Both the position numbers and the translations under genes were made by a program. A model generated the notes under the pieces. It did not search any database, had not been told where the DNA came from, and was given only the letters and a program-made list of their open reading frames with translations. This document shows, one piece after another, positions 7,741-50,529 of a stretch of DNA of 64,000 bases. The first letter of the stretch is position 1, and every line of letters begins with the position of its first letter. The DNA is from Flavobacteriales bacterium (GTDB taxonomy: Bacteria; Bacteroidota; Bacteroidia; Flavobacteriales_D; Sanyastnellaceae), in contig JAWKNK010000002.1 in NCBI GenBank assembly GCA_041391745.1, positions 203,576-267,575 of the forward strand, given 5' to 3'.

Positions 7741-7844
7741 TTCATAATTCTTAATTCGCGCTTCGCTTATTCAATATTCTCGATTCCCGATACGTCTTGC
7801 ACCGAGCCAATTCGACAAAATGAATAATAAATTATGAATATTCC

Positions 7845-10910: not shown

Positions 10911-10957
10911 ACATTCAGTACATTTCGTTCAACACAAGGGTCAAATATAAGGAGAAA

Positions 10958-11335
10958 GGGGACACCTTGCCTCCTCATGATATAGGTTGACAGGGATCGA
11001 GGGGACAATGATTCAAGGATTCGAGGATTCAAGAAACAAGAATTCGAGGATTCAAGGATTCGAGAGGACACCTGTCCCAGGCTCGTCTTGGGAAGGATTT
11101 GGGGGGACAAGAGAGTTTGAAGGTGTGGGAGTGTGAGAGGGATCGTTTTGCAAAACGTGACCCTTCGCTTTGATTTCTTTTTCATGCTTCGCATTTAAAG
11201 AAATCGACGCTCAGGGACCGGGGCTCGAGGAGTAGAATTTGGCGGAGCAGCAAAACTTTGTTTTGCTGCTCCGCGACCATCTTTAGTGCTGCACACGGGC
11301 CCTCGAGCGTAGCGAGAGGTGTTCAGGCTTAGTGC
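10958..11335. repeat. Mosaic intergenic repeat element, copy A: GGATTCRA 8-mer tandems, a conserved two-hairpin core, GTG-rich tracts and a 14-bp perfect hairpin
   Basis: (GGATTCAA/GGATTCGA)n runs at ~11000-11065. The core GGACACCTGTCCCAGGCTCGTCTTGGGAAGGATT (11066-11099) is shared with 25639-25672. GAGTGTGGGAGTGTGAGAGGG follows. The segment ...CTCAGGGACCG... is the reverse complement of 25866-25876. A hairpin GCGGAGCAGCAAAA-cttg-TTTTGCTGCTCCGC lies at 11242-11274. Confidence 0.55.
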
Positions 11336-11845: not shown

Positions 11846-11848
11846 AAC

Positions 11849-13255
11849 TTATAATTTATACAAAGGTAAACTGTCGATGGTGCCATCGTGCCATTTTATT
11901 TCCATGTTATATGTACCTGGAAAAAGCATGTTTACAAAAATCTGATACACACTTTCTTCATTGGCTAACTCTTGTTTCACCAATTTGCCCGTGTTATTAT
12001 AGATTTTTATTTCACTAATTAATTTACCGTTCGGTGCTGTAATTGTCGTACTCTCATATGTTGGATTAGGCGACACATCAAATGCCTTCGCTAATGATTC
12101 TTCTGTCTCCACGCAGTCATTCAGCCATCGATATGCCCGCGGAAATTCCTCTGCCCAAAACGCTTCACTATGCGACCCTTCGGGCCAATCCATCATGAAT
12201 AGTTGGTTTTCTTGATATCCAATGTCTACCAACAAGTTGTTCATTTTAATCATATCCTGAAGAACCTCACCTCTTCCCTCATTCGTGCCGCAAGCATAAT
12301 AAATCTTAGTATCCACCTTCGGCATGCTGTTCGCAACCATTTTTTCTAGCTCGGGATCCGCCCAATATGCTGGCGATAAGACCATAGCTTTGGAGAACAC
12401 ATCAGGATATTTGATCACTGCTGCCAAGGCCATATTCGCACCCAATGAAGATCCGCCAATACTCGTATTCTTCCGATCCTTTAAGGTGCGAAAATTATAA
12501 TCGATAACCGACTTCAAATTCTTGGTGATGAACTCGAGAATTTCATTTCCTTGCGGTATGTTATGAAGAGAATCGTTGACTCCAAAAGTGTATTCATTCA
12601 ATCGATCATTTCCGCCATTGTCAATACCAACTATGATACTTTTTTGGCATCCTTTCAGCGATGACATCGTTTCGTCAATTTTCCATTCGCCAGCAAACGA
12701 TGTAAATCGATCAAACAAATTCTGACCATCAAGCATATACACTACTGGGTAGTTGACACCACTCACCTGATATTCTTCAGGAAGGTAAACCCAAACTCGT
12801 CTTCGTTTTTTCAACTGAGGAATGAGCATGTCATTATCCAAAATGAGCACTTGTTCATTCATCGTTGTATTAATTGGAATATCCAGCCACTCCGCGACTG
12901 ATATCCCAAAAATACTCCCGTTTTGAATCAATACCTGATGGGTCATCGGTTCGTTCGTCTCGGCATTTCGTTCTGCCGACGCGTCAGATCCACGGTGTAC
13001 TTTTAATGTACACGTCATCCCTTCTGGTTCATCTTCGATTAAAAAATAATAGTGATCATCCTTTTTACGCATTGTTCTTGTAACCGCTTTGCTTGTATCA
13101 TCATCCAACTTATAGGTAACATAAAGCAAATCCAACATTGGCGTATTCTGCGGAACGGACTCCAAGAAAATTGAAGTCTGTGCGCTAGTGCTAAATACAT
13201 TTAAAATCAGGTATGAGCAAATTACCACATACCGAATGATCATTCGGTTTTTCAT
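11849..13255 (-). CDS. Secreted alpha/beta-hydrolase (esterase-family fold) with a type-A T9SS C-terminal sorting domain
   Basis: Signal peptide present. Esterase core ...PVVYMLDGQNLFD...IGGSSLGANMALAAVIKYPDVFSKAMVLSPAYW. C-terminal ~80 aa ...VSPNPTYESTTITAPNGKLISEIKIYNNTGKLVKQ...GTYNMEIKWHDG is typical of a T9SS sorting domain. Confidence 0.75.
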   Translation of the reverse strand: MKNRMIIRYVVICSYLILNVFSTSAQTSIFLESVPQNTPMLDLLYVTYKLDDDTSKAVTRTMRKKDDHYYFLIEDEPEGMTCTLKVHRGSDASAERNAETNEPMTHQVLIQNGSIFGISVAEWLDIPINTTMNEQVLILDNDMLIPQLKKRRRVWVYLPEEYQVSGVNYPVVYMLDGQNLFDRFTSFAGEWKIDETMSSLKGCQKSIIVGIDNGGNDRLNEYTFGVNDSLHNIPQGNEILEFITKNLKSVIDYNFRTLKDRKNTSIGGSSLGANMALAAVIKYPDVFSKAMVLSPAYWADPELEKMVANSMPKVDTKIYYACGTNEGRGEVLQDMIKMNNLLVDIGYQENQLFMMDWPEGSHSEAFWAEEFPRAYRWLNDCVETEESLAKAFDVSPNPTYESTTITAPNGKLISEIKIYNNTGKLVKQELANEESVYQIFVNMLFPGTYNMEIKWHDGTIDSLPLYKL

Positions 13256-16005: not shown

Positions 16006-16227
16006 AGCTCAAATATAATCCAAGTCCGGTTAAACAGAGAACCTCCTTGTTCGGCACTATTTTATTCCCATTTAGAATAAAGAATTAGAATAGAATGAAA
16101 ACTACCTTCACCTTTGATAAAAATTCACGCTATGAAAACATAAATTCTCTCGATAGTATAAGTATATAATTTACTTTTTTCTTGTAAAAATGATACAGAA
16201 TTAAATGCCGACAATACGACATCAATT

Positions 16228-16542
16228 TTGCTTGATGGCAATTGGAAAATCACCAATTACATCGATAGCGGCGAAAATGAAACGTATAAATTCAATGGAC
16301 ATACATTCGATTTTGCAAATGGTGGATCAGTGAGTGTTTCTACTGGAAGCGGCACCGTTCAAGGGTCTTGGTCCACAGGAGAAGACGACTCTCACGTAAA
16401 ACTTTACCTGAGCTTTTCTTCTCTTCCACACGAAGACATCAGCGACGATTGGCATGTAGTATCACAAACCAGTTCAAAAATTGAATTGGAAGACATTAGC
16501 GGAGGAAACGGAGGAGCAGATTACCTCACCTTCGAAAGATAA
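16228..16542 (+). CDS. Small hypothetical protein (Gly/Ser-rich beta-type domain). It has no ATG start. A lipobox remnant ..LLFSC lies upstream in the same frame.
   Basis: The frame is open from 16162 (VYNLLFSCKNDTELNADNTTSILLDGNWK...) but has no ATG. The track starts it at TTG 16228. The gene may be 5'-truncated or degenerate. Confidence 0.3.
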   Translation: MLDGNWKITNYIDSGENETYKFNGHTFDFANGGSVSVSTGSGTVQGSWSTGEDDSHVKLYLSFSSLPHEDISDDWHVVSQTSSKIELEDISGGNGGADYLTFER

Positions 16543-16558
16543 CCTGCTTATTTAAATA

Positions 16559-19500
16559 TCATTTGTTTAGGAGAACCCGAACAGCTGCTTCTAGTTGTTC
16601 ATCTCTTCCAGAAGTGGCTGTTTGGGGTCTATTTTCAACTTTCACATCGGGTTCAAGCTGTGTGTTTTCCATAAACTTACCATCATTGGTAATCATTCCA
16701 ACCTGAGGAATTCCAAACACAACTCCATTCTGTAAACCCTCCCACCAAACGGCCGTACCCGTTCCTGGCACTGGCATTCCGATTAATTTACCTACACCTA
16801 ATTCTCTGTATGTAAATGGAAACATGTGTGCATCTGAATAATTACTTTCATTCATTACAACTACAGATGGCTTCGACCATTTGAATTGAGGTTCGCTTCC
16901 CAAATCCTGACCTCTTGGAGAAATGCGGATGTAAGGTTTTCCACCAAGGAAGGTAGCCAAGTCATCGTGCAGCCATCCACCACCATTGAATCGCGTGTCT
17001 ACTACAAGCGCCTTCTTTAATCCGTGCTTACCGAGTGCTTTTTCATAAACTACTCTGAAGCTCGGGTCGTCCATTCCGCGAACATGCACATATCCAATAG
17101 TGCCATTTGACAACGAGTCTACGATGTGCTCGCAGCGCTCCACCCAACGTTGATAAAGCAATTCATTTTCATATCCACGTGAAATAGGTTTCACCACTTC
17201 TTCCCAACGAACGTTTGTTGTTGGGTTGAACAAACTCAACAACGTGTTCTTTCCATCCTTTCTATTTAATAAAGGATAATAATTGAGTTCAGGAGTAATT
17301 TCTACGCCATCAATTTTTTCGATGATAACACCATTTACAATCTTCGAGTCATTTTTTACGATTGGATTTTTGTGAATCACTTCTTTAATTTTCAATCCCT
17401 TTCCAGTGTAAGTATCATCATAGAAAAATCCGAGTGACGCTGTTTGGTCACCTTGAGGTTTTGCATTCCAATAAAAAGCTCCAGTATGCGATGCGTTAAG
17501 CTCTCCAAGCATTTCACCCATCATATCCGCAAAGTCATAATTGTTGTTCACATCTCCCACTTTTTTCGCGTATTCCGCTTTGTAAAAATCCCATTTTACA
17601 CCATGTAGATCTTTCACATAAAACTTCTTTACCACTTGGCGCCAAATGTGTTCAAACAAATAAGCGCGCTCCTCATTGGCGTTCAGAATCATTTCCCCAT
17701 GAACACCAATTGGTTTTGATTCACCGCTAGCCATATCTATTTTATTGATCGATCCATTGGCCACAACAAACAAGAATTTGTCAGTCGAATCAGGGAATAT
17801 ACTTCCGTATCCTGTTCCGAGTTTTGCAAGAATTTTCGTCTCCTTCGTTCTCAAATCTGTTTTCCAAAGGTCCACACCTTTTTCCATTTCAGCCATGTAA
17901 TAAAGCGCGCTGCCATCCTTGCTTACGTAGGCATCCGACAAGTTGGATGAGTGAATTGTAAGGCGAACTTTTCTATCCATGAAACCATCAAGTTCCATTT
18001 TCAATGGTTCGATGCTTTTCTTTTCTTCTTCCTTTTTCTTTGATTTATCGTCCTTCTTTTTTCCCTCTTCAGCCTTCTTTTTTTCCTCTTCTTTTTTCTT
18101 CTTTTCTTCCTGATAAATTTCAAAATCTTCTTTCGACATTTTGAATTCATCAAAAGCTTCTTGCGTCAAAAAGGATGCGTACACATCGGATTGTGCGCCC
18201 CAACTCGCATGATTCTTCAAGCCATTTCTTGATGAAGTCCAAATCACCATTTTTCCATTCATCATCCATCTTGGCATTTCAGCGCCATAGCCTGATTCCG
18301 TTAGGTTAAGCACCGTTCCTTTACCGTCGGAACTCACCAATCCTGCTTGCGAAATCCACTGTGCACCTGGCAAGTAGTTAACTAAAAACCACTTTCCATC
18401 GGGTGACCACTGATAGAACTGATCGCCATCTGCATAAGAATAATTTTTATCGCCAGACACAATTGTTCGAACGGCCTTTGATTCCAAATTGATTACACGC
18501 AAAGTGGTACGCTCTTCCAAAAACGCAATCTCTTTTCCATCGGGTGAATACTGAGGTTGAAACGTCTCCTCTTTGGTAGCGATGATTGTGTCTTCTTTTA
18601 AAACTGTAGATGTATAAAAATACAATTCTTCTTTTCTAGAAATAGATGAACGATAAATGTTCCAAGATCCATTTCTTTCTCCTGAATAAATCAATGCGCG
18701 TCCATCTGGACTGAATTGAATATCCCGTTCTTGTTCGGGTGTGTTGGTGATACGCTTCGTGGTGCCTTCAGCTGTTGAAGCCACAAATACTTCTCCTCTA
18801 TGAATGAATGCAAACTCTTTTCCGTTTGGCGAAAGAGCGAAGTCGCTGACATTGTTTACAGGAATTGTTTCCACTGGAGTGTAGTGTCCGTCAACCGCAA
18901 TTTTCACATCTACTTTTTGTGGTGTTCCTCCTTCACGCAATGTGAAAATTTCACCATGATAGATGTAGCATAAGATACCATCTGAACTCACGCTCAACGA
19001 TCGAACGGGATGTTCCATATAGCTTGTTAAAACGGATGCACCTCTTGCTCCAGGCTCCGTTTTAAAGATATTCATACTACCATCCTGTTCGCTCAAAAAA
19101 TAAATGCTCTTGCCATCTGGAGCCCACACAGGATCAAGGTCTTCACCTCCGAAAGTGCTAACTTTTGTATACTCTTTTGTATTAAAATTATACGTCCAAA
19201 TATCGCGCGTCACCGATGAAGTATGGTGTTTTCTGAATTCATCCTCATAGCCTTTTTGATCTTGGAACACAATCACAGAACCATCGGCATTATAATCCAC
19301 TTCCAATGCAGGTGTTGTCAAAATTTGAATTTCTCTTCCACCAGTAACAGCAACTTTATACAATTCAGGAAATGCCCCAGTCGGATTTTGCTGATAGTTC
19401 GCATTGTCCATTCTAGACGATGAGAAAACTATAAACTTCCCGTCTGGCGTGAAGTCACATGGAGTATCCCCGCTGCTGTGATAGGTGAGGCGCGTGGCTG

Positions 19501-19792
19501 TTCCACCTGTTGCGGGTACTATGAAAACATCGAAGTTTCCGTATCGATCTGAAGCGAATGCAATTGATTTTCCATCGGGCGACCATATTGGATTTTTCTC
19601 ATATGATTCGTCAAGTGTAAGCACCTTCGCCTCACCTCCATCCGATGCTACCACGTACACGTCGCCCTTATAACAGAAGGCGATTTGTGAACCATCAGGA
19701 GAAATCGAAGGAAATCTCATCCATTCTGGAGTTGTCTGAGCTTGAAAAACAAATGCTGCTAATACAGCAACTAGACTTAAAGCGTATTTCAT
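16559..19792 (-). CDS. Tricorn-protease-like S41 peptidase: TolB-like beta-propellers, PDZ and an S41 catalytic domain, 1077 aa
   Basis: Signal peptide present. Repeated ..SPDGKxIAF.. propeller blades. C-terminal S41 region ...VVDTRFNGGGW...SDAHMFPF...GTGTAVWW. A K/E-rich low-complexity insert (EEKKKKEEEKKKAEEGKKKDDKSKKKEEEKK) lies in the middle. Confidence 0.75.
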   Translation of the reverse strand: MKYALSLVAVLAAFVFQAQTTPEWMRFPSISPDGSQIAFCYKGDVYVVASDGGEAKVLTLDESYEKNPIWSPDGKSIAFASDRYGNFDVFIVPATGGTATRLTYHSSGDTPCDFTPDGKFIVFSSSRMDNANYQQNPTGAFPELYKVAVTGGREIQILTTPALEVDYNADGSVIVFQDQKGYEDEFRKHHTSSVTRDIWTYNFNTKEYTKVSTFGGEDLDPVWAPDGKSIYFLSEQDGSMNIFKTEPGARGASVLTSYMEHPVRSLSVSSDGILCYIYHGEIFTLREGGTPQKVDVKIAVDGHYTPVETIPVNNVSDFALSPNGKEFAFIHRGEVFVASTAEGTTKRITNTPEQERDIQFSPDGRALIYSGERNGSWNIYRSSISRKEELYFYTSTVLKEDTIIATKEETFQPQYSPDGKEIAFLEERTTLRVINLESKAVRTIVSGDKNYSYADGDQFYQWSPDGKWFLVNYLPGAQWISQAGLVSSDGKGTVLNLTESGYGAEMPRWMMNGKMVIWTSSRNGLKNHASWGAQSDVYASFLTQEAFDEFKMSKEDFEIYQEEKKKKEEEKKKAEEGKKKDDKSKKKEEEKKSIEPLKMELDGFMDRKVRLTIHSSNLSDAYVSKDGSALYYMAEMEKGVDLWKTDLRTKETKILAKLGTGYGSIFPDSTDKFLFVVANGSINKIDMASGESKPIGVHGEMILNANEERAYLFEHIWRQVVKKFYVKDLHGVKWDFYKAEYAKKVGDVNNNYDFADMMGEMLGELNASHTGAFYWNAKPQGDQTASLGFFYDDTYTGKGLKIKEVIHKNPIVKNDSKIVNGVIIEKIDGVEITPELNYYPLLNRKDGKNTLLSLFNPTTNVRWEEVVKPISRGYENELLYQRWVERCEHIVDSLSNGTIGYVHVRGMDDPSFRVVYEKALGKHGLKKALVVDTRFNGGGWLHDDLATFLGGKPYIRISPRGQDLGSEPQFKWSKPSVVVMNESNYSDAHMFPFTYRELGVGKLIGMPVPGTGTAVWWEGLQNGVVFGIPQVGMITNDGKFMENTQLEPDVKVENRPQTATSGRDEQLEAAVRVLLNK

Positions 19793-19847
19793 AGTAGGGG
19801 TATTTCCGTGCCAATATATTTATTCCACTCCAAAATGACGTGCCGCT

Positions 19848-19877
19848 CATCCTATTTGTTGCAATCCACAAATAGGA
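19848..19877. promoter_or_regulatory. Perfect 10-bp inverted repeat (TCCTATTTGT-N8-ACAAATAGGA) in the divergent promoter region. It is a candidate operator.
   Basis: tcctatttgt tgcaatcc acaaatagga lies between the tricorn-like protease (-) and the SAM-methyltransferase (+). No U-tract follows on either strand. Confidence 0.4.
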
Positions 19878-19911
19878 TCAAATAAAAAATATCGTCTAAA
19901 TTCACCACCCA

Positions 19912-20592
19912 ATGAACACGGAAACAGAAAAAATAAAAGAGCGATACGCCAAAAGAGCGGCAAGTGAAACTGTTCTAAAACACAGTCAGTCGGCGGTGTA
20001 CAATGAGTTTTCTCGCGAAGAAAAGGAGCGAGTTTTCGAACGATTCATACGTCAATATGTAGGTGATCCAGAAAAATTGAGTGTGCTAGAAATTGGAGCA
20101 GGAGGTGGTATAAATATTTCTTTTTTTAAAAATATCGGAGTTCCAGCTCATCAAATCTTCGGAAATGAGCTTTTAGCAGAACGCGTAGAAGACTTGCAAT
20201 TGCGCCATCCCGACATTCACATTATAGCGGGTGATGCACTCCAAATAGATGAAAACACATTTGGTAAAATGGATGTCATTTTTCAAAGCACCGTTTTCAC
20301 TTCCATTTTAGATGATGGTTTTAAAAGCAAATTGGCAGAGAAAATGAAAGCACTTCTTAAGCCAAATGGAATGGTGCTTTGGTATGACTTTGTTTACAAT
20401 AATCCTTCAAATAAAGATGTAAAGGGAGTCCCTGTTGCAGAAGTCCGAACACTGTTTCCAGACTTTGATTTTCATTTTGAAAAAGTAACGCTTGCTCCAC
20501 CTATCGGCCGTCGCGTGGGCAGTATGTATCCCCTTTTCAATGCACTTCCTTTTTTAAGAACACATGTTGTAGGCGCGGGAATTAGACTTTAA
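19912..20592 (+). CDS. Class I SAM-dependent methyltransferase
   Basis: Motif I LEIGAGGGINISFF, with the downstream D/E acidic loop typical of the Rossmann methyltransferase fold. Confidence 0.7.
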   Translation: MNTETEKIKERYAKRAASETVLKHSQSAVYNEFSREEKERVFERFIRQYVGDPEKLSVLEIGAGGGINISFFKNIGVPAHQIFGNELLAERVEDLQLRHPDIHIIAGDALQIDENTFGKMDVIFQSTVFTSILDDGFKSKLAEKMKALLKPNGMVLWYDFVYNNPSNKDVKGVPVAEVRTLFPDFDFHFEKVTLAPPIGRRVGSMYPLFNALPFLRTHVVGAGIRL

Positions 20593-21050
20593 ATTTTCAA
20601 TTGTCTTGAAAATGATTCTTCCAAACTGATCAAGGTTTCAGTTCTTGCTACGCCATCCACTTTTTGAATGCGATCTGAAAGAACATCACGCAAGTGACTT
20701 GTGCCCTTGCATTGCACTTTCAAAAAAAGTGAATATGTTCCTGTAGTGTAATGGCATGAAAGCACTTCGGGGATTTTCTGTAGTTCGCGAACCACCTTGT
20801 AGTACACATCGCTGCTCGCAAGGTACACCCCAATAAAAGCGGTGATATCCCAACCCAAAGCTGCAATGTCGATTTGCAATTGTGGCTTTTTGACAATGCC
20901 AGCTTCCTCCATTTTTTTCATGCGTACGTGCACAGTACCCGCAGCCACGTGCACTTTTTTAGCCACTTCAGTATACGGAGTAAAAGCATCCTGAGAAAGA
21001 ATGTTCAAAATCTTAATATCGATGTTGTCAATTTGATAATTCATCGCCAT
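20589..21050 (-). CDS. Lrp/AsnC-family transcriptional regulator
   Basis: N-terminal HTH (DNIDIKILNILSQDAFTPYTEVAKKVHVAAGTVHVRMKKMEEAGIV) plus a C-terminal RAM domain. Length is 153 aa. Confidence 0.8.
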   Translation of the reverse strand: MAMNYQIDNIDIKILNILSQDAFTPYTEVAKKVHVAAGTVHVRMKKMEEAGIVKKPQLQIDIAALGWDITAFIGVYLASSDVYYKVVRELQKIPEVLSCHYTTGTYSLFLKVQCKGTSHLRDVLSDRIQKVDGVARTETLISLEESFSRQLKI

Positions 21051-21181
21051 AATTTTGATGTAAAATTATCATATTTTTAATAAAAACACTATTTTATTAA
21101 ATTTCATCTAAAAATAATAGTAAAAACGTGCGTTTTTCGTAATAATTCAAGTGTTTAGCATACTTTTGTCATGTCAATCAA

Positions 21182-21325
21182 TCGAAAATACTGTTGGGTG
21201 ATGAAATTGGCAGACATACCCTACTGTCGCTAGGGTGAGGAGTTCGAAATAAAGAGAGAACGAGCTAAATGATGCAGGAAATTTGGTTCGTTTAATCCTA
21301 ATCGCCTCGTGGGGGTTCGAGTCCT
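21182..21325 (+). ncRNA. tRNA-Asp(GUC)-like RNA gene. The acceptor stem, D-loop, anticodon arm and T-arm are split by a ~70-nt insertion at 21231-21300.
   Basis: 5' TGTTGGG pairs with 3' TCCAACA (6 Watson-Crick pairs plus one G-U). D-loop AATTGG. Anticodon stem-loop ACCCTA-CTGTCGC-TAGGGT with GTC at 21216-21218. T-arm GGGGG-TTCGAGT-CCTTC matches the GGTTCGAGTCC of Bacteroidota tRNA-Asp. The total length is 144 nt. No CCA is encoded. Confidence 0.45.
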
Positions 21326-21373
21326 TCTCCAACAGCAATCAAATGTGGTTTGTTTGGTTATACAGAGTTTATC

Positions 21374-21400
21374 TCAGAAAATCAGCGCTCAAACGTGAGC
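21374..21400 (+). terminator. Rho-independent terminator downstream of the tRNA-like RNA
   Basis: AGCGCTCA-aac-GTGAGCGCT followed by TTTTTTTATTT. Confidence 0.7.
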
Positions 21401-21495
21401 GCTTTTTTTATTTATACCCCCGAAATTCAAGAATTTAAGGCTGTAAAGTCTCATGTATTTCATCGTATATTTGCAGGCCTTTTTTCGGCACACAT

Positions 21496-23286
21496 ATGAA
21501 GCACATTCGTAACTTTTGTATCATCGCTCACATCGACCATGGAAAATCAACTTTGGCCGACCGTCTTTTGCAAGTCACTGGCACGGTAGACAACCGTAAG
21601 CTAGTAGCGCAAACTCTTGATGATATGGACCTTGAGAGAGAGAAGGGTATTACCATCAAAGCACACGCTATCCAGATGGAGTACACTCACAAAGGAGAAA
21701 AATACGTTCTCAACCTTATCGATACTCCAGGTCACGTTGACTTTAGCTACGAAGTTTCTCGCTCTATCGCTGCATGCGAAGGAGCATTGCTTATTGTGGA
21801 TGCAACACAAGGGATTCAAGCACAGACCATCTCCAATCTTTACTTAGCATTGGAGCATGATCTTGAAATCATCCCTGTGTTGAACAAGCTCGATCTTGAT
21901 AATGCTGAACCAGAAGTGGTGAAAGATCAAATCGTTGATTTGATCGGTTGCGATAGAGATAGCATCCTTGCTGCATCAGGAAAAACGGGTTTCGGAGTAG
22001 ACACTATTCTTGATGCTATTATTGATAGGGTCCCTTCTCCAAAAGGAGACGTTGATGGGCCACTTCAAGCAATGATCTTCGACTCGATGTTCAACTCGTT
22101 CCGAGGAATCATCGCTTACTACCGTATTCTAAACGGTACTTTGAAAAAGGGAGATAAGGTTAAATTCCTCAGCACCGACCGCACTTATGAGGCAGACGAA
22201 GTAGGTGTATTGGGATTGGACCTCAAACCAAAAAGCGAAGTTCGCGCAGGCGACGTTGGATATATCATCAGTGGTATCAAAACCGCTACGGAGGTTAAGG
22301 TCGGCGACACCATCACTACGGTGGCAAACCCTTGTACCGATGCGGTAAAAGGTTTTGAAGATGTGAAGCCAATGGTATTCGCAGGTGTTTATCCTGTTGA
22401 TACTGAAGATTACGAAGAACTACGCGCATCGATGGAAAAACTCCAATTGAACGATGCTTCTTTGGTATTTGAACCTGAAAGTTCTGCCGCACTTGGATTC
22501 GGTTTCCGCTGCGGATTCTTAGGAATGCTTCACTTGGAAATCATTCAAGAAAGATTGGAGCGCGAGTTCAATATGACTGTAATTACAACCGTTCCAAACG
22601 TTAGTTACTACGCCTACACTTCTCGCGGAGAAAAGCTTGAAATTCATAACCCAAGCGAACTCCCAGATCCTGCAAAATTAGATTACGTAGAAGAACCATA
22701 TATCAAAGCGCAAATCATTACGAAAAGTGAATACACTGGTTCGGTAATGACTTTATGTATTGAAAAAAGAGGAATGTTAATCAATCAGCACTACCTCACT
22801 GCAGACCGCGTGGAGCTTACTTTTGAGATGCCACTTGCAGAAATCGTGTTCGACTTCTATGATCGTTTGAAAACCATTTCAAGAGGTTATGCTTCTTTCG
22901 ACTATTTCCCATTGGGTTATAAAGAAAGTGCCCTTGTGAAAATGGATATTCTCCTCAATGGTGATCAAGTAGATGCCTTGTCGGCATTGATTCACCGCGA
23001 CCACGCATTCGACCTTGGTAAGAAAATTTGTTTGAAGCTAAAAGAATTGATCCCAAGACAACAATTCGAAATTGCGCTTCAAGCAGCCATTGGTGCGAAG
23101 ATCATTGCGCGTGAAACCATTAAGGCGCTCCGTAAAGACGTAACCGCGAAGTGTTACGGTGGTGACATTTCTCGTAAAAGAAAACTTCTTGAAAAACAGA
23201 AAGAAGGTAAAAAGAGAATGCGTCAAGTAGGTAGCGTAGAGGTTCCACAGGAAGCATTCCTAGCCGTATTGAAGCTTAATTCGTAA
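21496..23286 (+). CDS. lepA: Translation elongation factor 4 (LepA)
   Basis: [25 protein letters not shown]...DTPGHVDF...NKLDL. Length is 596 aa. Confidence 0.9.
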
Positions 23287-23287
23287 G

Positions 23288-23782
23288 TTGTATTATCTTC
23301 GGAAAATCATGCTAACGGTTTTTCGAATACTTTCTATCATTGGTTCTGCCGGAATGATCCTGGCTATTTTCTTGCATTTAGCTATGCAGGAAGGAAGCCT
23401 TGAATTTTTCGATTACCTTCAAATGGGAATGGTTGTTTTTCTTTCGGCACAGTTGATTTATGTGCTGTCCACAAGCAAGCTTATATCCGGTAAAAAGTAT
23501 CACGACCTCGAAACGATTGATACCGCCTGGGCTTATGAGGAAAAGGAAAATCAACAAGTCATAAGCAACAATATGTTTCTGATTTCCATGGCGGTCATGG
23601 GTGGGCTCGTTTGGCTTTACTTCCTTTTCGTATTTGCCATTACCATTCGGTACCTACCTGGCCTTGATTACTCAGATACCAAAGCTCAAATATTCCTCGT
23701 CGCCATCGTGTCACAGTTCCTCGGAGCAGTTCCATCAGTAATATACAATGTAAGAACCTGGAATAAAAGCGTTCTTGCATAG
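23288..23782 (+). CDS. Hypothetical membrane protein
   Basis: 164 aa with 4 TM segments. The start may instead be at 23309 (MLTVF...). Confidence 0.4.
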   Translation: MYYLRKIMLTVFRILSIIGSAGMILAIFLHLAMQEGSLEFFDYLQMGMVVFLSAQLIYVLSTSKLISGKKYHDLETIDTAWAYEEKENQQVISNNMFLISMAVMGGLVWLYFLFVFAITIRYLPGLDYSDTKAQIFLVAIVSQFLGAVPSVIYNVRTWNKSVLA

Positions 23783-23857
23783 TCACACACCAACACTTGT
23801 TCATAATCGTTAGCAACGCGCTGCCCATTCGTTGGACAATGATTTTATTTTTAGCCC

Positions 23858-25445
23858 ATGAAATTATTTAGATACTTCCTTTCCATTTCATTGATGCTTC
23901 AGATCTTTTTTGCATCAGCTCAAACCCAGGAATTTCAAGATAAATATCCCAATGGCAACGTGCGAAGCGAGGGTATTTACGAAAGAGGATTTGAAGATGG
24001 TCTTTGGAAATATTATTATGAAGACGGAACTCTGCAAGAAGAAGCCAACTACAAAATGGGAAAGTTTCATGGCAGCGTGTTTCGCTACCATCCAAATGGA
24101 AAATTGATGGTAGAAGGCTACTTCAAAAATGACAAGCAAGACAGCATCCAGCGCACATTCACGGCAGACAGCATCCTTGTGGAGCAAGGCCTTTGGGCAA
24201 AGGGAGTGAAGACCGGAGAATGGGATTATTTCTACGCAAGTGGTGATACCATGATGATAGAAAATCATCTTGACTCTGTGGTAATGATGCTCGAGTATTT
24301 CACTTCATCGGGTGAGCATACTTTGAAAAAAGGCAACGGCACCGTCGCGGATCATTTTGAAAACGGTCGATTAAAATCGATCACGAATTATAAAAATGGT
24401 TTGCCCGACGGAAAATTCGAGGAATACTTTTCAGGTGGTTCCGTTCGCATTTCTGGAAATTATATTCAAGGGAAAAAAGATGGGGAATGGGTCGATTTAT
24501 TTCCAACAGGAAAAACAAAAAAATCACCACTTATAGTCAAGGTATTTTAAATGGAAAAATCGAAGAGTATTATGTGAATGGTCAGCTCAACGTAAAAGGC
24601 AATCACACCAATGGTAAAAAGAATGGACATTGGGAATGGTTTTTAGAAGGTGGTGAAAAAGACATGCAAGGGGACTTTGTAGACGACGTGCAGCAAGGAG
24701 ATTGGATCTATTGGTATAAAAACGGAAACAAGCAGTACTGGGGAGCCTACGAAGATGGCAGATGCATGGCACATGGCAATATCAATATTGGGGAGGAGAA
24801 AAATGGAAGTCGGGCAACTATGCAAAAGGACTGAAAGAAGGAGCTTGGCAATATTGGTTTGAAAATGGAAAATTGTTGATGGAGGAAATTTCAAAAACGA
24901 TTTGGAACAAGGAGTTTGGACGAGTTATTACGATTCGGGAAGATTAAAAGACAAAGGCTCGTACGATAAAGGCAAGCTGAAAGGTGCATGGGAAGGCTAT
25001 TATCCTAATGGAGTGAAAACCTATGTAGGAAGCTGAATGGTGATGTGAAAACAGGAAGTTGGTCATATTGGTCAGACCAAGGAAAATTGGAAAAGAAAGA
25101 AACCTACAACGCTGAGGAGTATTGAATGGTCCAAGCGAAACCTATGGTGAGAATGGAAAGCTTGAAAGCAAGGGTTCATTCAAAAATGGTAAGCCCAATG
25201 GAAAGTGGGAGTACTATTATGGACATGGAGCGCCGCTCAGATTTTGCAGTTTCAAAGAAGGCAAGCTCGATGGTAAGTCAACCATGTATGGAAAGAATGG
25301 AAGAATTGTAGAAGAGTGCGACTACAAAAACAATAAGCGTCACGGTATCTACACCAGCTACGATGAAAAAACGGGCAAGGTTGTTCTCAAGCAAGAATAC
25401 AACGAGGGTGTAGCGGGCAAAGTGCTCGAGGGAAAACCGAAGTAG
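23858..25445 (+). pseudogene. MORN-repeat / YwqK-family (antitoxin-like) repeat protein gene, fragmented by at least five 1-nt frameshifts
   Basis: Signal peptide at 23858. The GxWxxYYENGxLxxEGxYKNGKKxGxW repeats continue through four track ORFs (23858-24550, 24487-24834, 24762-24947, 25122-25445) and two short untracked frames (24950-25120). The shifts are at an A7 run (~24520), ~24770, GG/GGG (~24883), agc(t)tgaatgg (~25033) and tat(t)tgaatgg (~25110). Confidence 0.6.
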
Positions 25446-25890
25446 AAAAGGAGACTAGAGAGTGTGAGGGTTTGGAAGAGTTGGATTATTTGGAGAGATT
25501 GGATTTTTTTGGAATTGTTGGAAGAATTGGAAAGTATGGAAGTCTGAGAATTTTCCAATAGTAGATTCACATTGCTCAAGGATCGAGGATTCAAGGATTC
25601 GAGGATTCGAGGATTCGGATTCGAGGATTCAAGATCGAGGACACTTGTCCCGAGCTCGTCTCGGGAAGGATTGAGGATTGGAGAGACAAAAGAGTGTGAG
25701 AGTTTGGAAGATGGGAGTGTGGGAGTGTGGGAACGTAATGTGAATCCACTGACGAAAACAATTCTCGATGCTCAATTCTCGAATCGAGAATCGGGAATCG
25801 GGAATCGAGAATCGGGAATCGAAAATCCTGCAGATTAAAAGGGCGGTCCCTGAGAGGAGCGCAAGCGAAGTCGAAGGGGGAACCAAAAAA
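25446..25890. repeat. Mosaic intergenic repeat element, copy B: TTGGA-rich tract, GGATTCRA tandems, the conserved core hairpins, GAGTGTGGGAGTG tracts and GAATCGRGAATCGGG tandems
   Basis: The core GGACACTTGTCCCGAGCTCGTCTCGGGAAGGATT (25639-25672) differs from copy A by compensatory changes (CCCGA/TCGGG here, CCCAG/TTGGG in A). CGGTCCCTGAG at 25866-25876 is inverted relative to copy A. The convergent gene ends flank the element. Confidence 0.55.
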
Positions 25891-25912
25891 AAACCGCGTT
25901 TCCGCGGTTTTT
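25884..25912. terminator. Bidirectional intrinsic terminator
   Basis: AAAAAAAAA-CCGCG-tttc-CGCGG-TTTTT. On the - strand it is followed by T9 and terminates the isomerase gene. Confidence 0.7.
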
Positions 25913-25916
25913 GATA

Positions 25917-26900
25917 TTAGATTTTTGCTAGTTCACCTTTGAGGTAGATAATCGCTGGGATAGCCACTGGATCTTCGTTTTTCAACTCCGCCAAGTGAAT
26001 GCTCAACCAGTCACCTACATGGTTCAAATAGAAAGTACGCTCCACGCGATTGCTTCCCTTCGACCAAATTTCAATAATCGTATCGCACTTCTCACCCATC
26101 AACTTTTTACAAAGTTCCATGCGTACTTGTGATCGTTTGTGATCATCTTCATTGCGAAGCATCAACACAGCAACGCGATTGTCGCCACCAGTCCAACCTA
26201 CCAGTTCGTTGTGGTTCATTTCTGGGAACACGTGGTGCCAACATAGCATTTTGCTATTCTCATTGATTTGCTGTCTCCAACGAATAGCAATGCCTTCGTA
26301 TTGAGCTTCTGCATATAGAATTGGAATGCGACTCACAATTTGATCTGCAATGGCCTTTGTGCTCGACTGGATTTCTGCAGCGTCTGCCTCCAATAGAGTA
26401 ATTACGTTTTCAAGTGAAGCTTCAAATGAATTATCGATTAAGCCATAAGCATTCAACACATAAAATTGCTGAACCGCGCTGTAACCAAACATCGCACGTG
26501 GAGGATTTCCTCCAGGAATGATGATACAGTTCAATCCGAATTCTTTGGCAAAACCTGCGATTTTACCACCGCTAGTAATACATGCAATCTCAGCACCTTT
26601 TTCGCGTGCCTCGTGGAAAGCTGCTACTGTTTCTTCAGTATCACCGCTATAACTACTGATGATTACCAAAGTGTCCTGATTTACAAATCCTGGAAGTACA
26701 TAGTCATTGGTACAGATGATTGGAAGCGCGCATGTCTCACCAACAAGTTGAGACACGATTTTACCACCAATTCCTGATCCACCAAGACCAGAGATAACAA
26801 TATTCTTATAAGTTCTATTCGGAATGTTGAATTGCGCAGCACGACCAATTTTAATGGCCTCACGCAAATGTGTTGGAAAAGCTTCTACTAATGCTTTCAT
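25917..26900 (-). CDS. Bifunctional phosphoglucose/phosphomannose isomerase (SIS domain, PGI/PMI family)
   Basis: 327 aa: ...NIVISGLGGSGIGGKIVSQL...LVIISSYSGDTEETV... with the two SIS domains characteristic of archaeal-type PGI/PMI. Confidence 0.7.
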   Translation of the reverse strand: MKALVEAFPTHLREAIKIGRAAQFNIPNRTYKNIVISGLGGSGIGGKIVSQLVGETCALPIICTNDYVLPGFVNQDTLVIISSYSGDTEETVAAFHEAREKGAEIACITSGGKIAGFAKEFGLNCIIIPGGNPPRAMFGYSAVQQFYVLNAYGLIDNSFEASLENVITLLEADAAEIQSSTKAIADQIVSRIPILYAEAQYEGIAIRWRQQINENSKMLCWHHVFPEMNHNELVGWTGGDNRVAVLMLRNEDDHKRSQVRMELCKKLMGEKCDTIIEIWSKGSNRVERTFYLNHVGDWLSIHLAELKNEDPVAIPAIIYLKGELAKI

Positions 26901-27921: not shown

Positions 27922-27950
27922 ATAAAAAAAATCCCGACCGAAGTCGGGAT
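27922..27950 (-). terminator. Intrinsic terminator after the Ig-like T9SS-substrate gene
   Basis: - strand: ATCCCGAC-ttcg-GTCGGGAT followed by TTTTTTTT. Confidence 0.7.
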
Positions 27951-27973
27951 TCAAAATCCAAAACATTCACATA

Positions 27974-31220: not shown

Positions 31221-31243
31221 CAAGTATTTGTAAAACCGAATGT

Positions 31244-32758
31244 TTATTCGGTTTCGTTTGCATCTGTTGTTGGAGTGGTTGTTTCCTTTCCTTCATTCTG
31301 ACCTTTCAAATAAGTTGGAAGGTTTAGACCTGCCATATTGAATAAGTCATTCAATGGTGGAACAGCTTTCATCATTCCGCTTACGAAATTTGCGGTTGAG
31401 CCATTGCCATCAGCGTTGTTTCCAGAATCCCAAACAGTAACTTTATCAATTTTGATATTCTTAACTGCTTCCACTTGTGTTTTAACCAGCTCAGGAAGTT
31501 TTTCAATAAGCAAGAGTTGGAATGCATTTGTAGAATCACCACCAGCAGCCTTAACCACTTGCTCATAACCTTCCGCTTGTTTGGTAAGGATTTCATAAAG
31601 ACCTTTCGCTTCTGCTTCCATCTTTGCATAGATCGCGTCAGCTTCCCCTTTCGCGTTTACGCGAATTCTTTCCGCTTCTGCTTGTGCTTCGATGATGGCT
31701 CTTTGCTTAGCGATTTCCGCAGGTACAACTACGTTTGCGATTTGGGTTGAGCGTTCTCTTTCCGAACGCGCCAATTCCGCCTTTTGTTCTGCTACATAAG
31801 CCGCTTCAAGCGCCAAGGCTTGTTGTACTTTCTCGGCAGCCATTGCAATACGAAGTGCTTCCGCTTCCTTCTCTCTTCTTAATGCTTCGGAAGATGCAAT
31901 AGCAATCTTCGCTTCGTTTTCCCCTTTAATCGCAATCGCATTCGCTTCAGAGGTTTTGATACGCGTATCTCTTTCCGCTTCGGCCTTACCGATAGATTCA
32001 TCTCTACCCGCGGCAGCGATGCTGATTTCTCTGTCTTTTTGCGTAATCGCAATTTTAACGTCACGATCTCTGTGCGTTTCAGCGATAGAGGTGTCCTTTT
32101 CTCTATCAGCCAAAGCCTTTCCTGTTTCCCCGATCTTCTCTTGTTCAGCCACAGAAATCTTAGCTTCGTTGATCGCTTTCGCCGCAGCTTCTTTACCAAG
32201 AGCCTCGATGTAGCCAGATTCGTCCTTGATGTCCGTAACGTTTACGTTAATCAATTTCAACCCGATTTTTTTCAATTCGCTATCGACATTCTTAGAAATA
32301 TTCTCCAAGAATTTATCTCTATCCGAGTTGATTTCTTCGATGGTCATCGTAGCAATTACCAGACGTAATTGACCGAACAAAATATCTTTTGCCAATTCCT
32401 GAATTTGTTCTGAAGACAAACCGAGCAAACGTTCGGCCGCAGTATTCATATTGTCCGCTTCCGTAGAGATGGCAATAGTAAAACGACATGGAACGTCCAC
32501 GCGAATATTCTGCCTGCTCAGTGCATTGGTCAAGTTCGCTTCAATTGAAAGTGGTTTCAAGTCTAGGTATGCATAGTCTTGAATTACGGGCCAAATAAAG
32601 GCACCACCACCATGTATACATTTTGCAGAAGATCCGCCTGTGCGGCCATATACTACAAGTATTTTGTCGGAAGGACATCGCTTATACCTCGCAACAAGTG
32701 CAGAGATTAAGACGAAAAATACAACAGCTCCGACTGCTATAATTAACAACTGATTCAT
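31244..32758 (-). CDS. Flotillin / SPFH (band-7) domain protein
   Basis: N-terminal TM helix, an SPFH domain, and a long A/E/K-rich flotillin coiled-coil. Length is 504 aa. Confidence 0.8.
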   Translation of the reverse strand: MNQLLIIAVGAVVFFVLISALVARYKRCPSDKILVVYGRTGGSSAKCIHGGGAFIWPVIQDYAYLDLKPLSIEANLTNALSRQNIRVDVPCRFTIAISTEADNMNTAAERLLGLSSEQIQELAKDILFGQLRLVIATMTIEEINSDRDKFLENISKNVDSELKKIGLKLINVNVTDIKDESGYIEALGKEAAAKAINEAKISVAEQEKIGETGKALADREKDTSIAETHRDRDVKIAITQKDREISIAAAGRDESIGKAEAERDTRIKTSEANAIAIKGENEAKIAIASSEALRREKEAEALRIAMAAEKVQQALALEAAYVAEQKAELARSERERSTQIANVVVPAEIAKQRAIIEAQAEAERIRVNAKGEADAIYAKMEAEAKGLYEILTKQAEGYEQVVKAAGGDSTNAFQLLLIEKLPELVKTQVEAVKNIKIDKVTVWDSGNNADGNGSTANFVSGMMKAVPPLNDLFNMAGLNLPTYLKGQNEGKETTTPTTDANETE

Positions 32759-43483: not shown

Positions 43484-43530
43484 CGACAAGGATTCAAGTA
43501 GACAAGGATTCAATTCTCAATTCTCGAAGG
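43484..43530. repeat. Short member (copy C) of the GGATTCAA / CTCAATTCTCGAA repeat family, between convergent genes
   Basis: GACAAGGATTCAAgtaGACAAGGATTCAATTCTCAATTCTCGAAGG shares its modules with copies A and B. Confidence 0.4.
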
Positions 43531-44035
43531 ATGAATAAGGAATTTGGAATGTCATTATATAATCATTCATGTAATATCCATTGCCGATGTGTACATCGAC
43601 TTCTTCAACTACTTTGAACTGCATTCGATCATAGAAAGTTTTGGCTTTGTTGAATCGATTTACATTAAGTGATAAGGACTTTCCGTTTTGCTTTTTTACC
43701 TCCGAAATAACATTCTCAAGAAGTGATTTTCCCGCTCCTATGCCTTGAATAGTAGGGAGGACGTAAATCTTATGCAGTTTAAATTCGTGAGGTTCAATTT
43801 CAGAATATGAGGCAAAACCAATAGGTGTATTTCCATCATACATCAAAATGAAAACACATCCTTCCTCTTCCATCTGACGCTTCAATGATGCTTCACTATA
43901 CATCATTTCCAACATGTAATTGATTTGTTCTTCGCTTAAAATTTCACGATAGGTTTGCGGCCAAACTTGCAAATTCAATTCTTGAATTAGAGGAATGTCA
44001 GAAGTATTCGCAAATCGGAATTTGAAATTAGCCAT
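43517..44035 (-). CDS. GNAT-family N-acetyltransferase
   Basis: ...IQGIGAGKSLLENVISEV... acetyl-CoA-binding motif. Length is 172 aa. Confidence 0.75.
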   Translation of the reverse strand: MANFKFRFANTSDIPLIQELNLQVWPQTYREILSEEQINYMLEMMYSEASLKRQMEEEGCVFILMYDGNTPIGFASYSEIEPHEFKLHKIYVLPTIQGIGAGKSLLENVISEVKKQNGKSLSLNVNRFNKAKTFYDRMQFKVVEEVDVHIGNGYYMNDYIMTFQIPYSSFEN

Positions 44036-50497: not shown

Positions 50498-50529
50498 AAA
50501 ATCCCGACAGTTGTCGGGATTTTTTTTTC
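50498..50529 (+). terminator. Intrinsic terminator after the GDH gene
   Basis: ATCCCGACAG-TTGTCGGGAT followed by TTTTTTTTT. Confidence 0.75.

What the first reader, a model, noticed from the sequence alone, without database searches (positions are those of the whole stretch)
25446..25915. Mosaic intergenic repeat, copy B, between convergent genes and ending in a bidirectional terminator
This is a 470-bp non-coding gap between the MORN-repeat pseudogene and the isomerase gene.

It opens with a TTGGA-rich tract, followed by GGATTCRA tandems. The conserved core GGACACTTGTCCCGAGCTCGTCTCGGGAAGGATT lies at 25639-25672, followed by GAGTGTGAGAG/GGGAGTGTGGGAGTGTGGG tracts.

A second tandem family, GAATCGAGAATCGGGAATCGGGAATCGAGAATCGGGAATCG, lies at ~25772-25815. 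A related CTCAATTCTCGAA unit occurs again at 43506-43518 (copy C).

The element ends at an A9-hairpin-T5 terminator (25884-25912).

ORFs called inside the element (25572-25838 on +, 25629-25886 on -) are low-complexity translations of the repeats.

The intergenic spacer is unusually long for this otherwise compact genome.
Basis: seen in the sequence. Interest (0 to 1): 0.55.

Follow-up and report, generated by a model that had tools for sequence, protein, structure and literature searches.

The report
Mosaic short-repeat spacer in a Flavobacteriales genome
The long gap between the MORN and isomerase genes is real non-coding DNA made of short tandem repeats around a small hairpin; it recurs once nearby, is missing in a sister strain and sits at a gene-order breakpoint, but it belongs to a known kind of fast-evolving bacterial spacer repeat.

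Summary
The 471-nt gap (25446-25916) contains four arrays of 7-9-nt units, a 34-nt core, a GC-rich hairpin and the isomerase terminator.

A block of about 160-183 nt is a low-copy repeat. It consists of the GGATTCRA array, the core and the GRGTGTG array.
- A second copy, 82% identical, lies at 10984-11140.
- The block (25544-25726) is missing from the same spacer in a conspecific metagenome contig.
- Short related pieces lie at 7742-7823 and about 43486-43555.
- A sister species carries TTGGA and GGAVTCGA arrays at the copy-A site, and three of its assemblies break there.

Both full copies sit at gene-order junctions found only in this lineage.

The core was found nowhere else:
- exact-pattern scans of the genome, metagenome and viral collections;
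- BLAST against plasmid and phage records;
- 5.8 billion proteins searched in all six frames;
- 1.15 Mb of relatives searched with a covariance model.

In contrast, 7-8-nt intergenic arrays are common in this freshwater Flavobacteriales clade, and GGATTCRA arrays occur in at least 120 unrelated metagenome contigs.

The best reading is slippage-generated arrays plus a block copied or lost by recombination between array units. There is no sign of terminal inverted repeats, target duplications, a known RNA family or a protein product. It is a new member of a known kind (long simple-sequence and heptamer-repeat spacers, BIME-like mosaics). Interest is modest.

The parts
25459..25479 (+). AGAGTGTGAGGGTTTGGAAGA, repeated 20/21 at 25691-25711 (an internal direct repeat 232 nt apart)
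   Evidence: Read; GAGTGTGAG positions; weak nhmmer self-hit
25471..25543 (+). TTGGA-rich tract (irregular units of about 9 nt). Unit order and number differ in the conspecific contig L001.
25544..25726 (+). 183-nt strain-variable block, absent from L001. Its borders are ATGGAAGT (25536-25543) and GTGGGAGT (25719-25726).
   Evidence: Alignment A2; PGI 100% aa and about 97.5% nt identical between window and L001
25563..25726 (+). Copy B of the duplicated block (homologous to 10984-11140; 82% identity over 144 aligned nt)
25579..25641 (+). Tandem array (A)GGATTCR(A), about 8.5 units of 8 nt
25639..25672 (+). 34-nt core: palindrome GGACA-NN-TGTCC overlapping the hairpin TCCCGAG-CTCGT-CTCGGGA (stem 25648-25654 / 25660-25666)
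25692..25733 (+). Tandem array GRGTGTG(G), about 5 units
25781..25827 (+). Tandem array GAATCGR, 6.7 units. It is three units (21 nt) shorter in L001.
25845..25884 (+). GC-rich hairpin module GGTCCCTGAG...GCGAAGTCGAAGGGGGAACC. It is conserved in L001, which has 13 extra nt after it.
   Evidence: (z = -2.7 together with the terminator)
25885..25912 (-). Intrinsic terminator of PGI (A9, stem CCGCG/CGCGG extended by A/T pairs, T5). Identical in L001; could also act on the + strand.
10984..11140 (+). Copy A of the block: GGATTCRA array 11006-11061, core 11066-11099, GGGAGTGTGAGAG 11127-11139. It lies between the PSP1 start (10910) and the RidA end.
11157..11319 (.). Copy-A-specific right part:
- GGTCCCTGAGCG...AGCGAAGGGTCAC on the - strand (11157-11219);
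- a 15-bp-stem hairpin (11241-11274);
- GGGCCCTCGAGCGTAGCGAGAGG (11297-11319).
It folds well (z = -3.75).
7742..7823 (-). Fragment D: an 82-nt segment of the HolB-RecO spacer that is absent from sister species L207. It contains ATCGGGAATCGAGAAT (16 nt identical to the copy-B array) and AAGCGAAGCGCGAA.
   Evidence: (I2, I11)
43486..43555 (+). Fragment C: two CAAGGATTCAA units, ATTCTCA x2 / CTCAATTCTCGAA and TTGGAAT, between convergent genes. A weak relative.
   Evidence: (D4)

Best explanation
The spacer is non-coding, fast-evolving 'mosaic' DNA in a freshwater Flavobacteriales genome.

Composition:
- arrays of 7-9-nt units;
- a 34-nt double-palindrome core;
- a GC-rich hairpin;
- the PGI terminator.

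Proposed mechanism:
1. The arrays arise and change length by replication slippage. Shown: unit-number differences between conspecific strains.
2. The block of about 160-183 nt (GGATTCRA array, core, GRGTGTG array) is a low-copy repeat. It has been copied to, or lost from, spacers by illegitimate recombination or template switching between array units. This is inferred from TGGRAGT microhomology at the indel borders and from the absence of terminal inverted repeats or target duplications.
3. Such spacers accumulate at, and probably favour, gene-order breakpoints. Shown: both copies lie at lineage-specific junctions. Causality is inferred.

No product is encoded. Any effect is probably incidental, such as transcript 3' end or insulation, or spacing upstream of the PSP1 promoter.
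For: - All modules verified.
- Second copy 82% identical.
- The conspecific contig L001 lacks 25544-25726 and three GAATCGR units, and has a different TTGGA tract, while PGI is 100% aa identical.
- Sister species (PSP1 93% aa, about 83% nt): TTGGA and GGAVTCGA arrays start at the same boundary upstream of PSP1, and three independent assemblies end inside them.
- The 82-nt fragment D is present or absent between species.
- More than 20 relatives keep RidA-DUF3108-PGI-lipB, and one keeps MORN-PSP1. The window has RidA-[A]-PSP1 and MORN-[B]-PGI.
- Relatives carry their own 7-8-nt arrays in the same spacers, varying in unit type and number.
- No Rfam family, no Pfam family or homologues for the internal ORFs, and no sigma-70-type promoter-like site within the spacer.
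- Published parallels: heptamer-repeat assemblages in Flavobacteriia whose relatives lack them, contigs that end in them, and a suggested link to rearrangement (PMC4679880).
Against: - The two block copies are in direct orientation. Neither a simple inverted-repeat-mediated inversion nor splitting of one ancestral spacer explains them.
- If the copy-B block were a recent insertion, its source should be more than 95% identical, but copy A is only 82%. So either closer copies exist outside the window, which would favour true mobility, or L001 has a deletion.
- The right border of the indel coincides with the right end of A/B homology, and the left border is within 19 nt of the left end. This hints at a discrete unit.
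- Three of the four core substitutions keep the stem paired, which hints at selection on structure.
- Strong strand asymmetry (30 GGA on + against 5 on -) is not explained by slippage alone.
Confidence: 0.58

Rival explanations
1. The block is a non-autonomous mobile element (REP/BIME/REPIN-like or MITE-like). A transposase encoded elsewhere recognises the core hairpin and moves it in trans. The arrays are secondary.
For: - Discrete block shared by two loci.
- Presence/absence between conspecific strains, with borders close to the ends of A/B homology.
- Extragenic hairpin with one compensatory and one wobble change.
- CGTC tetranucleotide within the hairpin (compare the REP tags in PMC3733652).
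- Mosaic association with other motifs, as in BIMEs.
- The 82% A/B identity implies closer source copies elsewhere if B is a recent insertion.
Against: - No terminal inverted repeats common to A and B. A 10-nt inverted repeat (25565-25574 / 25738-25747) exists in B only, and its right arm is retained in L001.
- No target-site duplication in A.
- CGTC lies in the loop, not at the palindrome end.
- Only two copies in 64 kb, and none in 1.15 Mb of relatives or any collection.
- No transposase was identified, though the window was not fully screened.
Confidence: 0.17
2. The purine-rich + strand is transcribed as a functional RNA. It would be either a 3'-UTR-derived or stand-alone small RNA, or a protein 'sponge' whose repeated (A/G)AGGAUUC and UUGGA units titrate an RNA-binding protein, ending at the 25885-25912 terminator.
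For: - 30 GGA motifs on + against 5 on - in 438 nt, about 5 times the window density.
- CAAGGAU units resemble the CsrA-binding consensus (own knowledge).
- Weak CsrC-like hit of 17.8 bits.
- Terminator at the 3' end.
- The core hairpin is kept in both copies.
- Heptamer repeats elsewhere have been proposed as binding sites for S1, Csp or CsrA proteins (PMC4679880).
Against: - The hit is far below the Rfam gathering score (61 bits).
- No sigma-70-type promoter-like site lies within the spacer, and inspection for the Bacteroidota-type -33/-7 motif found only partial -7-like matches without a correctly spaced -33.
- In copy A the flanking genes run on the opposite strand.
- The block is dispensable in a conspecific strain and absent from relatives.
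- Fold energies are not better than shuffles for the + strand.
- CsrA is not known to me in Flavobacteriia and was not tested here.
Confidence: 0.1
3. The arrays are contingency (phase-variation-like) repeats whose length tunes expression of a neighbouring gene, for example PSP1/RicT in copy A.
For: - Copy A begins about 15 nt upstream of a TAnnTTTG-type -7 box (CAAATATA at 10942-10949 on the + strand), so it occupies the -33 and upstream region of PSP1.
- Array length varies between strains.
- Relatives have arrays directly upstream of start codons.
Against: - Copy B lies between two gene 3' ends, where no promoter is expected.
- Units of 7-8 nt with many variants are unlike classical switch tracts.
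- The neighbouring genes are housekeeping genes.
Confidence: 0.08
4. The finding is a chance similarity or an assembly artefact.
For: - The window shows possible homopolymer indel errors (RidA, MORN).
- Repeats do break short-read assemblies.
Against: - The core match has 0 expected by chance.
- Independent assemblies (L001, L207-L209) contain the same module types.
- The two flanks of the 183-nt indel share no 31-mer that could collapse a de Bruijn graph.
Confidence: 0.02

Closest known systems
Long simple sequence repeats with 5-11-nt units, especially heptamer-repeat assemblages in intergenic regions of Flavobacteriia, Cyanobacteria and Beggiatoaceae (Mrazek 2007 as cited in PMC4679880; MacGregor 2015, PMC4679880). 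The cyanobacterial STRR heptamers are cited from my own knowledge.
   Same: - Intergenic arrays of 7-8-nt units, several unit types mixed in one spacer.
- Close relatives have shorter spacers without them.
- Contigs end inside them.
- Association with local gene rearrangement.
- Copy number varies between strains.
   Different: - The unit sequences (GGATTCRA, GRGTGTG, GAATCGR, TTGGA-type) are not TAACTGA or the STRR units.
- The arrays flank a unique 34-nt hairpin core, and the whole block is duplicated at a second locus.
BIME/REP (bacterial interspersed mosaic elements built from palindromic units) and REPINs (PMC3116915, PMC3733652)
   Same: - Extragenic, and often between convergent genes or at 3' ends.
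- Short imperfect palindrome combined with other short motifs in variable order and orientation.
- Presence/absence between strains.
   Different: - No GTAG or CGTC tag at the palindrome end.
- Copy number unknown and apparently low.
- No RAYT gene identified.
- The palindrome is flanked by simple tandem arrays rather than by the BIME linker motifs.
Small dispersed repeats (SDR) of Nostoc, which sit within tandem heptamers (Elhai et al. 2008, Genome Res 18:1484). Cited from memory and from reference lists; the paper itself could not be read.
   Same: A very small repeated unit embedded in, or next to, tandem heptamer-type arrays, with mobility inferred from presence/absence.
   Different: A different phylum and different sequences. 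SDRs are reported in many copies per genome, whereas only two copies were seen here.
MITEs
   Same: Size (about 160-180 nt), non-coding, polymorphic between strains.
   Different: No terminal inverted repeats or target-site duplications shared by the copies.

Membership tests
Long simple sequence repeats / heptamer-type tandem arrays | Head-to-tail repeats of a 5-11-nt unit, longer than chance allows | tested here: met
   TRF found 8.5 x 8 nt, 5.2 x 8 nt and 6.7 x 7 nt arrays. The two-unit pattern gave 8 hits against 0.1 expected.
Long simple sequence repeats / heptamer-type tandem arrays | Copy-number variation between close strains, consistent with slippage | tested here: met
   L001 has three fewer GAATCGR units and a different TTGGA tract. 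Arrays in L004, L007 and L010 differ in unit number.
Long simple sequence repeats / heptamer-type tandem arrays | Intergenic location and recurrence across the lineage | tested here: met
   About 30 arrays of period 7-8 were found in 1.04 Mb of related loci. All those inspected were intergenic.
REP / BIME | Imperfect palindrome of 20-40 nt, extragenic | tested here: met
   7-bp stem with a 5-nt loop inside the 34-nt core, in both copies.
REP / BIME | GTAG or CGTC tetranucleotide at one end of the palindrome (PMC3733652) | tested here: not met
   There is no GTAG. CGTC lies across the loop and 3' stem (GCTCGTCT), not at an end.
REP / BIME | Tens to hundreds of copies per genome | not testable with these tools
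   Only a 64-kb window is available, and it holds 2 copies. The source genome is absent from all collections.
REP / BIME | A cognate RAYT (Y1 transposase) gene in the genome | not tested
   The genome is not available, and the window ORFs were only partly annotated.
MITE | Terminal inverted repeats | tested here: not met
   The only inverted repeat is 10 nt, in copy B alone, and its right arm is outside the indel. Copy A has none.
MITE | Target-site duplication | tested here: inconclusive
   The copy-B borders ATGGAAGT and GTGGGAGT match 6/8 but are themselves array units. No duplication is seen around copy A.
CsrB/RsmZ-type protein-sponge RNA | Match to the curated RNA family | tested here: not met
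   The CsrC hit scores 17.8 bits against a gathering score of 61.
CsrB/RsmZ-type protein-sponge RNA | Many GGA motifs on one strand, bounded by a promoter and a terminator | tested here: inconclusive
   GGA counts are 30 (+) against 5 (-), and a terminator is present. No promoter-like site lies within the spacer; the one sigma-70-type site called is at 25925-25952, inside PGI.
Intrinsic terminator | GC-rich stem-loop followed by a T run | tested here: met
   Called on the - strand at 25912-25889 with a T tail. Fold energy -14.3 kcal/mol, z = -2.1.
Known RNA families (Rfam 15) | Score at or above the gathering threshold | tested here: not met
   Only two tRNAs were found in the window. Local E-value scans gave only sub-threshold noise.

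The most novel reading that the evidence does not exclude
The block, and the wider class of purine-rich octamer arrays, may be a functional or self-propagating element rather than slippage debris. Two forms are possible.
- A transcribed multi-site RNA that titrates a GGA- or heptamer-binding protein.
- A new kind of hairpin-plus-array element that seeds arrays and drives local gene-order change.

The wider class is broad. GGATTCRA arrays were found in at least 120 metagenome contigs of 30-68% GC. About one in six of the arrays examined has an inverted partner array that could form a long hairpin.
Probability: 0.08. Interest if true: 0.65.

Novelty: new member of a known kind. Interest (0 to 1): 0.3.

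Why it matters
The finding documents array-rich mosaic spacers in an uncultured freshwater Flavobacteriales lineage. These spacers turn over between strains, break short-read assemblies and mark gene-order breakpoints.

This is useful for interpreting MAG fragmentation and synteny loss. It also adds a Flavobacteriales example to the poorly understood heptamer and octamer repeat phenomenon.

As it stands, the finding does not reveal a new mechanism or open a new question.

Tried and rejected
- **Exact-pattern scans for the core.** GGACACNTGTCCCN{9,13}GGGAAGGATT gave 0 hits in genome contigs, metagenome contigs and viral contigs.
- **Protein-level census of spurious ORFs.** An alignment of one minus-strand frame, then all six frames of both cores joined together, gave no hit among 5.8 billion proteins.
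- **Models on held DNA.** nhmmer (1.7 Mb) and a covariance model (1.15 Mb) found only copies A and B.
- **nhmmer with the 5' and 3' parts of B, the 3' part of A and the L002 spacer.** No significant cross-species hit. The resemblance of the GGTCCCTGAG...GAAGGG hairpin and CGRAATC arrays in L002 and L008 therefore stays anecdotal. The regex count was 4 against about 1.6 in shuffles.
- **Plasmid and phage BLAST.** No match.
- **Look-ups of RidA, PSP1 and the 172-aa ORF for other strains.** Not on record.
- **Orthologous MORN/PGI spacer comparison.** Impossible, because the junction is unique to this lineage.
- **Inversion mediated by copies A and B, or splitting of one ancestral MORN-PSP1 spacer.** Rejected, because the copies are in direct orientation and B is oriented opposite to what either model predicts.
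- **Long-range pairing of the GGATTCRA and GAATCGR arrays.** Not predicted by folding. The + strand z is -1.3. The - strand z of -3.0 comes from a local hairpin in the GAATCGR region and the 10-nt inverted repeat.
- **Literature search for the unit sequences.** Nothing found. Elhai 2008 is not held.

Full report
**Observation**

The gap between the stop of the last MORN_2 ORF (25445) and the stop of the bacterial-type phosphoglucose isomerase gene (25917, - strand) is 471 nt. It contains the following, in order:
- a TTGGA-rich tract (25471-25543);
- an array of 8.5 AGGATTCG units (25579-25641);
- the 34-nt core at exactly 25639-25672;
- a GRGTGTG array (25692-25733);
- a GC-rich hairpin, GGTCCCTGAG...GAAGGGGGAACC (25845-25884);
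- an A9-stem-T5 hairpin (25885-25912).

The core occurs twice in the window, at 11066-11099 and 25639-25672, with 0 expected by chance. The two-unit GGATTCRA pattern gives 8 hits against 0.1 expected, all in these two loci. The median intergenic gap in the window is about 60 nt, and this is the longest gap between convergent genes. The terminator scan calls the final hairpin on the PGI strand. The internal ORFs have no Pfam family and no homologue.

**Organism and comparators**

The PGI protein finds 80 loci in species-representative genomes. All are freshwater Flavobacteriales MAGs, some labelled Crocinitomicaceae, and the best is 86% identical. The window's own genome is in none of the collections.
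- L001 is a Logan contig (SRR14126293). It encodes an identical PGI protein and its DNA is about 97.5% identical, so it is a conspecific strain.
- L207-L209 are contigs from three other runs. They encode a PSP1/RicT protein 93% identical and align to the window at about 83% nucleotide identity, so they represent a sister species.

**What is repeated**

Alignment of the two core-bearing spacers shows one homologous block: 10984-11140 (copy A) and 25563-25726 (copy B). It comprises the GGATTCRA array, the core and the GRGTGTG array. Identity is 82% over 144 aligned positions, plus array-length gaps. Outside the block the two spacers differ. They share only a GGTCCCTGAG...GAAGGG-type hairpin, which is in the opposite orientation in A.

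Two small fragments also exist.
- Fragment D is 82 nt (7742-7823). It carries 16 nt identical to the GAATCGR array, and the whole segment is missing from the sister species.
- Fragment C is a weak piece with two GGATTCAA units at about 43486-43555.

**Polymorphism**

In L001 the same spacer keeps the terminator, the GC-rich hairpin, a GAATCGR array three units shorter, and a TTGGA tract of different composition. It lacks 25544-25726 altogether. The junction reads ATGGAAGT|GTGGGAAC, where the window has ATGGAAGT|...GTGGGAGT|GTGGGAAC. The right border of this indel coincides with the right end of A/B homology. The left border lies 19 nt outside the left end.

In the sister species, homology to the window upstream of PSP1 stops at 10962. 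Beyond that point come a TTGGA tract and GGAVTCGA units, and all three assemblies end there. So the module family predates the species, occupies the copy-A site in both, and breaks short-read assemblies.

**Genomic setting**

More than 20 related loci keep the order RidA-DUF3108-PGI-lipB. The one relative that covers it (L210) has LepA-159aa-MORN-PSP1-GldH-HolB. The window instead has RidA-[copy A]-PSP1 and MORN-[copy B]-PGI. Both copies therefore lie exactly at junctions created by lineage-specific rearrangement. Inversion of the roughly 14.5-kb RidA...MORN segment explains junction A, and a further local inversion is needed for junction B.

The two blocks are in direct orientation. B is also oriented opposite to what a split ancestral MORN-PSP1 spacer would give. 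So neither recombination between the copies nor simple spacer splitting explains them. The link to breakpoints is shown; its cause is not.

**Arrays are generic, the core is not**

Related species have their own 7-8-nt arrays in the same neighbourhood. Examples:
- TAGTATGC x15, ATTCTGA x8 and GAATTTC x10 directly after PGI;
- ATGGTTG x14 and GTGGGTTC x10 elsewhere;
- some arrays occur as inverted pairs.

Copy number and unit type differ among species of 80-84% identity. Two contigs at 95% identity diverge completely at one such spacer.

Twenty-one of the 127 arrays examined had an inverted partner array.

The core was found nowhere else:
- three collections by exact pattern;
- six-frame protein searches;
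- plasmid and phage records;
- an HMM over 1.7 Mb of held DNA and a covariance model over 1.15 Mb of window plus relatives.

**Structure and coding**

The core contains a 7-bp stem with a 5-nt loop. Three of the four differences between the copies fall in the stem and keep it paired: one A-T to G-C double change and one G-T/A-T change. With two sequences this is not significant (219 of 500 shuffles do as well). Fold energies of the core are no better than shuffles.

No Rfam family reaches threshold. The + strand is markedly purine- and GGA-rich, with 30 GGA against 5 on the - strand, and gives a sub-threshold CsrC-like hit. This is a lead only.

**Interpretation**

The best-supported reading (about 0.58) is a neutral or nearly neutral mosaic spacer.
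- The arrays are made and resized by slippage.
- The low-copy block is duplicated or deleted through array microhomology.
- The spacer is located at breakpoints.

This matches published descriptions of heptamer-repeat assemblages in Flavobacteriia, where relatives lack them, contigs end in them, and a role in rearrangement was suggested. It also matches long simple sequence repeats generally (PMC4679880; see also PMC4692102). The mosaic resembles BIMEs in layout (PMC3116915, PMC3733652).

Rival readings:
- a trans-mobilised REP- or MITE-like element (0.17). It is favoured by the discrete block and by the argument that a recent insertion needs a closer source than copy A. It is disfavoured by the lack of inverted termini, target duplications, an end tag or further copies.
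- a functional + strand RNA or protein sponge (0.10);
- an expression-tuning repeat (0.08);
- an artefact (0.02).

**Verdict**

This is a real feature and a correct observation. The copy number is low. The arrays are a general clade trait. The setting is a rearrangement junction rather than a conserved spacer. It is a new member of a known kind, and interest is about 0.3.

Noticed in passing
window 11415-11464 (RidA, - strand): RidA has a 1-nt deletion in a C run relative to four relatives. This shifts the last 13 or so codons and extends the ORF to 11336. The original-frame stop is at 11415-11417. It is either a real frameshift or a homopolymer sequencing error, and it makes spacer A about 504 nt long.
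   Followed up: partly
window 23858-25445: Against 530-560-aa orthologues, the MORN_2 gene is split into three frames and has an in-frame stop at 24945-24947. The frame changes lie near A5-A7 runs (24470-24560, 24730-24850). The 'pseudogene' may therefore be partly an assembly-error artefact.
   Followed up: partly
window 10911-25916 compared with L004, L210 and more than 20 other loci: The roughly 14.5-kb segment from RidA to MORN is inverted relative to the gene order conserved in relatives. The DUF3108-PGI-lipB block is rearranged further. This neighbourhood also differs among the relatives themselves (L002, L005, L008, L009).
   Followed up: yes
L004 10990-11113; L007 10990-11048; L010 4904-5029; L009 6807-6901; L008 1849-2035; L027 1035-1153; L078 1705-1813: Related Flavobacteriales carry species-specific 7-8-nt tandem arrays in intergenic spacers. 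Several form inverted array pairs that could make long hairpins just upstream of a start codon.
   Followed up: partly
L082-L206 (for example L089 2310-2670): GGATTCRA-type octamer arrays occur in at least 120 metagenome contigs of very different GC content, and in 5 viral loci on 4 contigs, one of them a giant-virus MAG contig. They are often mixed with GGTTAGAG or GGTTGGAG arrays and followed by the complementary arrays. Some 30%-GC termite-gut contigs are more than 50% such satellite. I found no paper that quotes these units.
   Followed up: partly
L207 9354-11357 compared with window about 1586-1618: The sister species has a two-gene insertion (an AAA_15/AAA_21 ATPase and a 148-aa ORF, a possible defence-type island) that is absent from the window.
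   Followed up: no
window 31233-31254 and 62371-62392; 27924-27951 and 50500-50527: Two pairs of near-identical terminator-like hairpins recur at distant gene ends in opposite orientation: AAACCGAATGTTTATTCGGTTT, and A8-TCCCGAC...GTCGGGA-T. They may be another small repeat family.
   Followed up: no
window 59239-59580: A long coding tandem repeat of period 9/27 (ACNGGNACN-type, rich in Thr and Gly) lies inside the 428-aa ORF at 58388-59674.
   Followed up: no
L001 1306-1336: Beyond the TTGGA tract, the conspecific contig continues into 31 nt that occur nowhere in the window. The MORN 3' end is not there, so the neighbour of this spacer may differ even within the species.
   Followed up: partly
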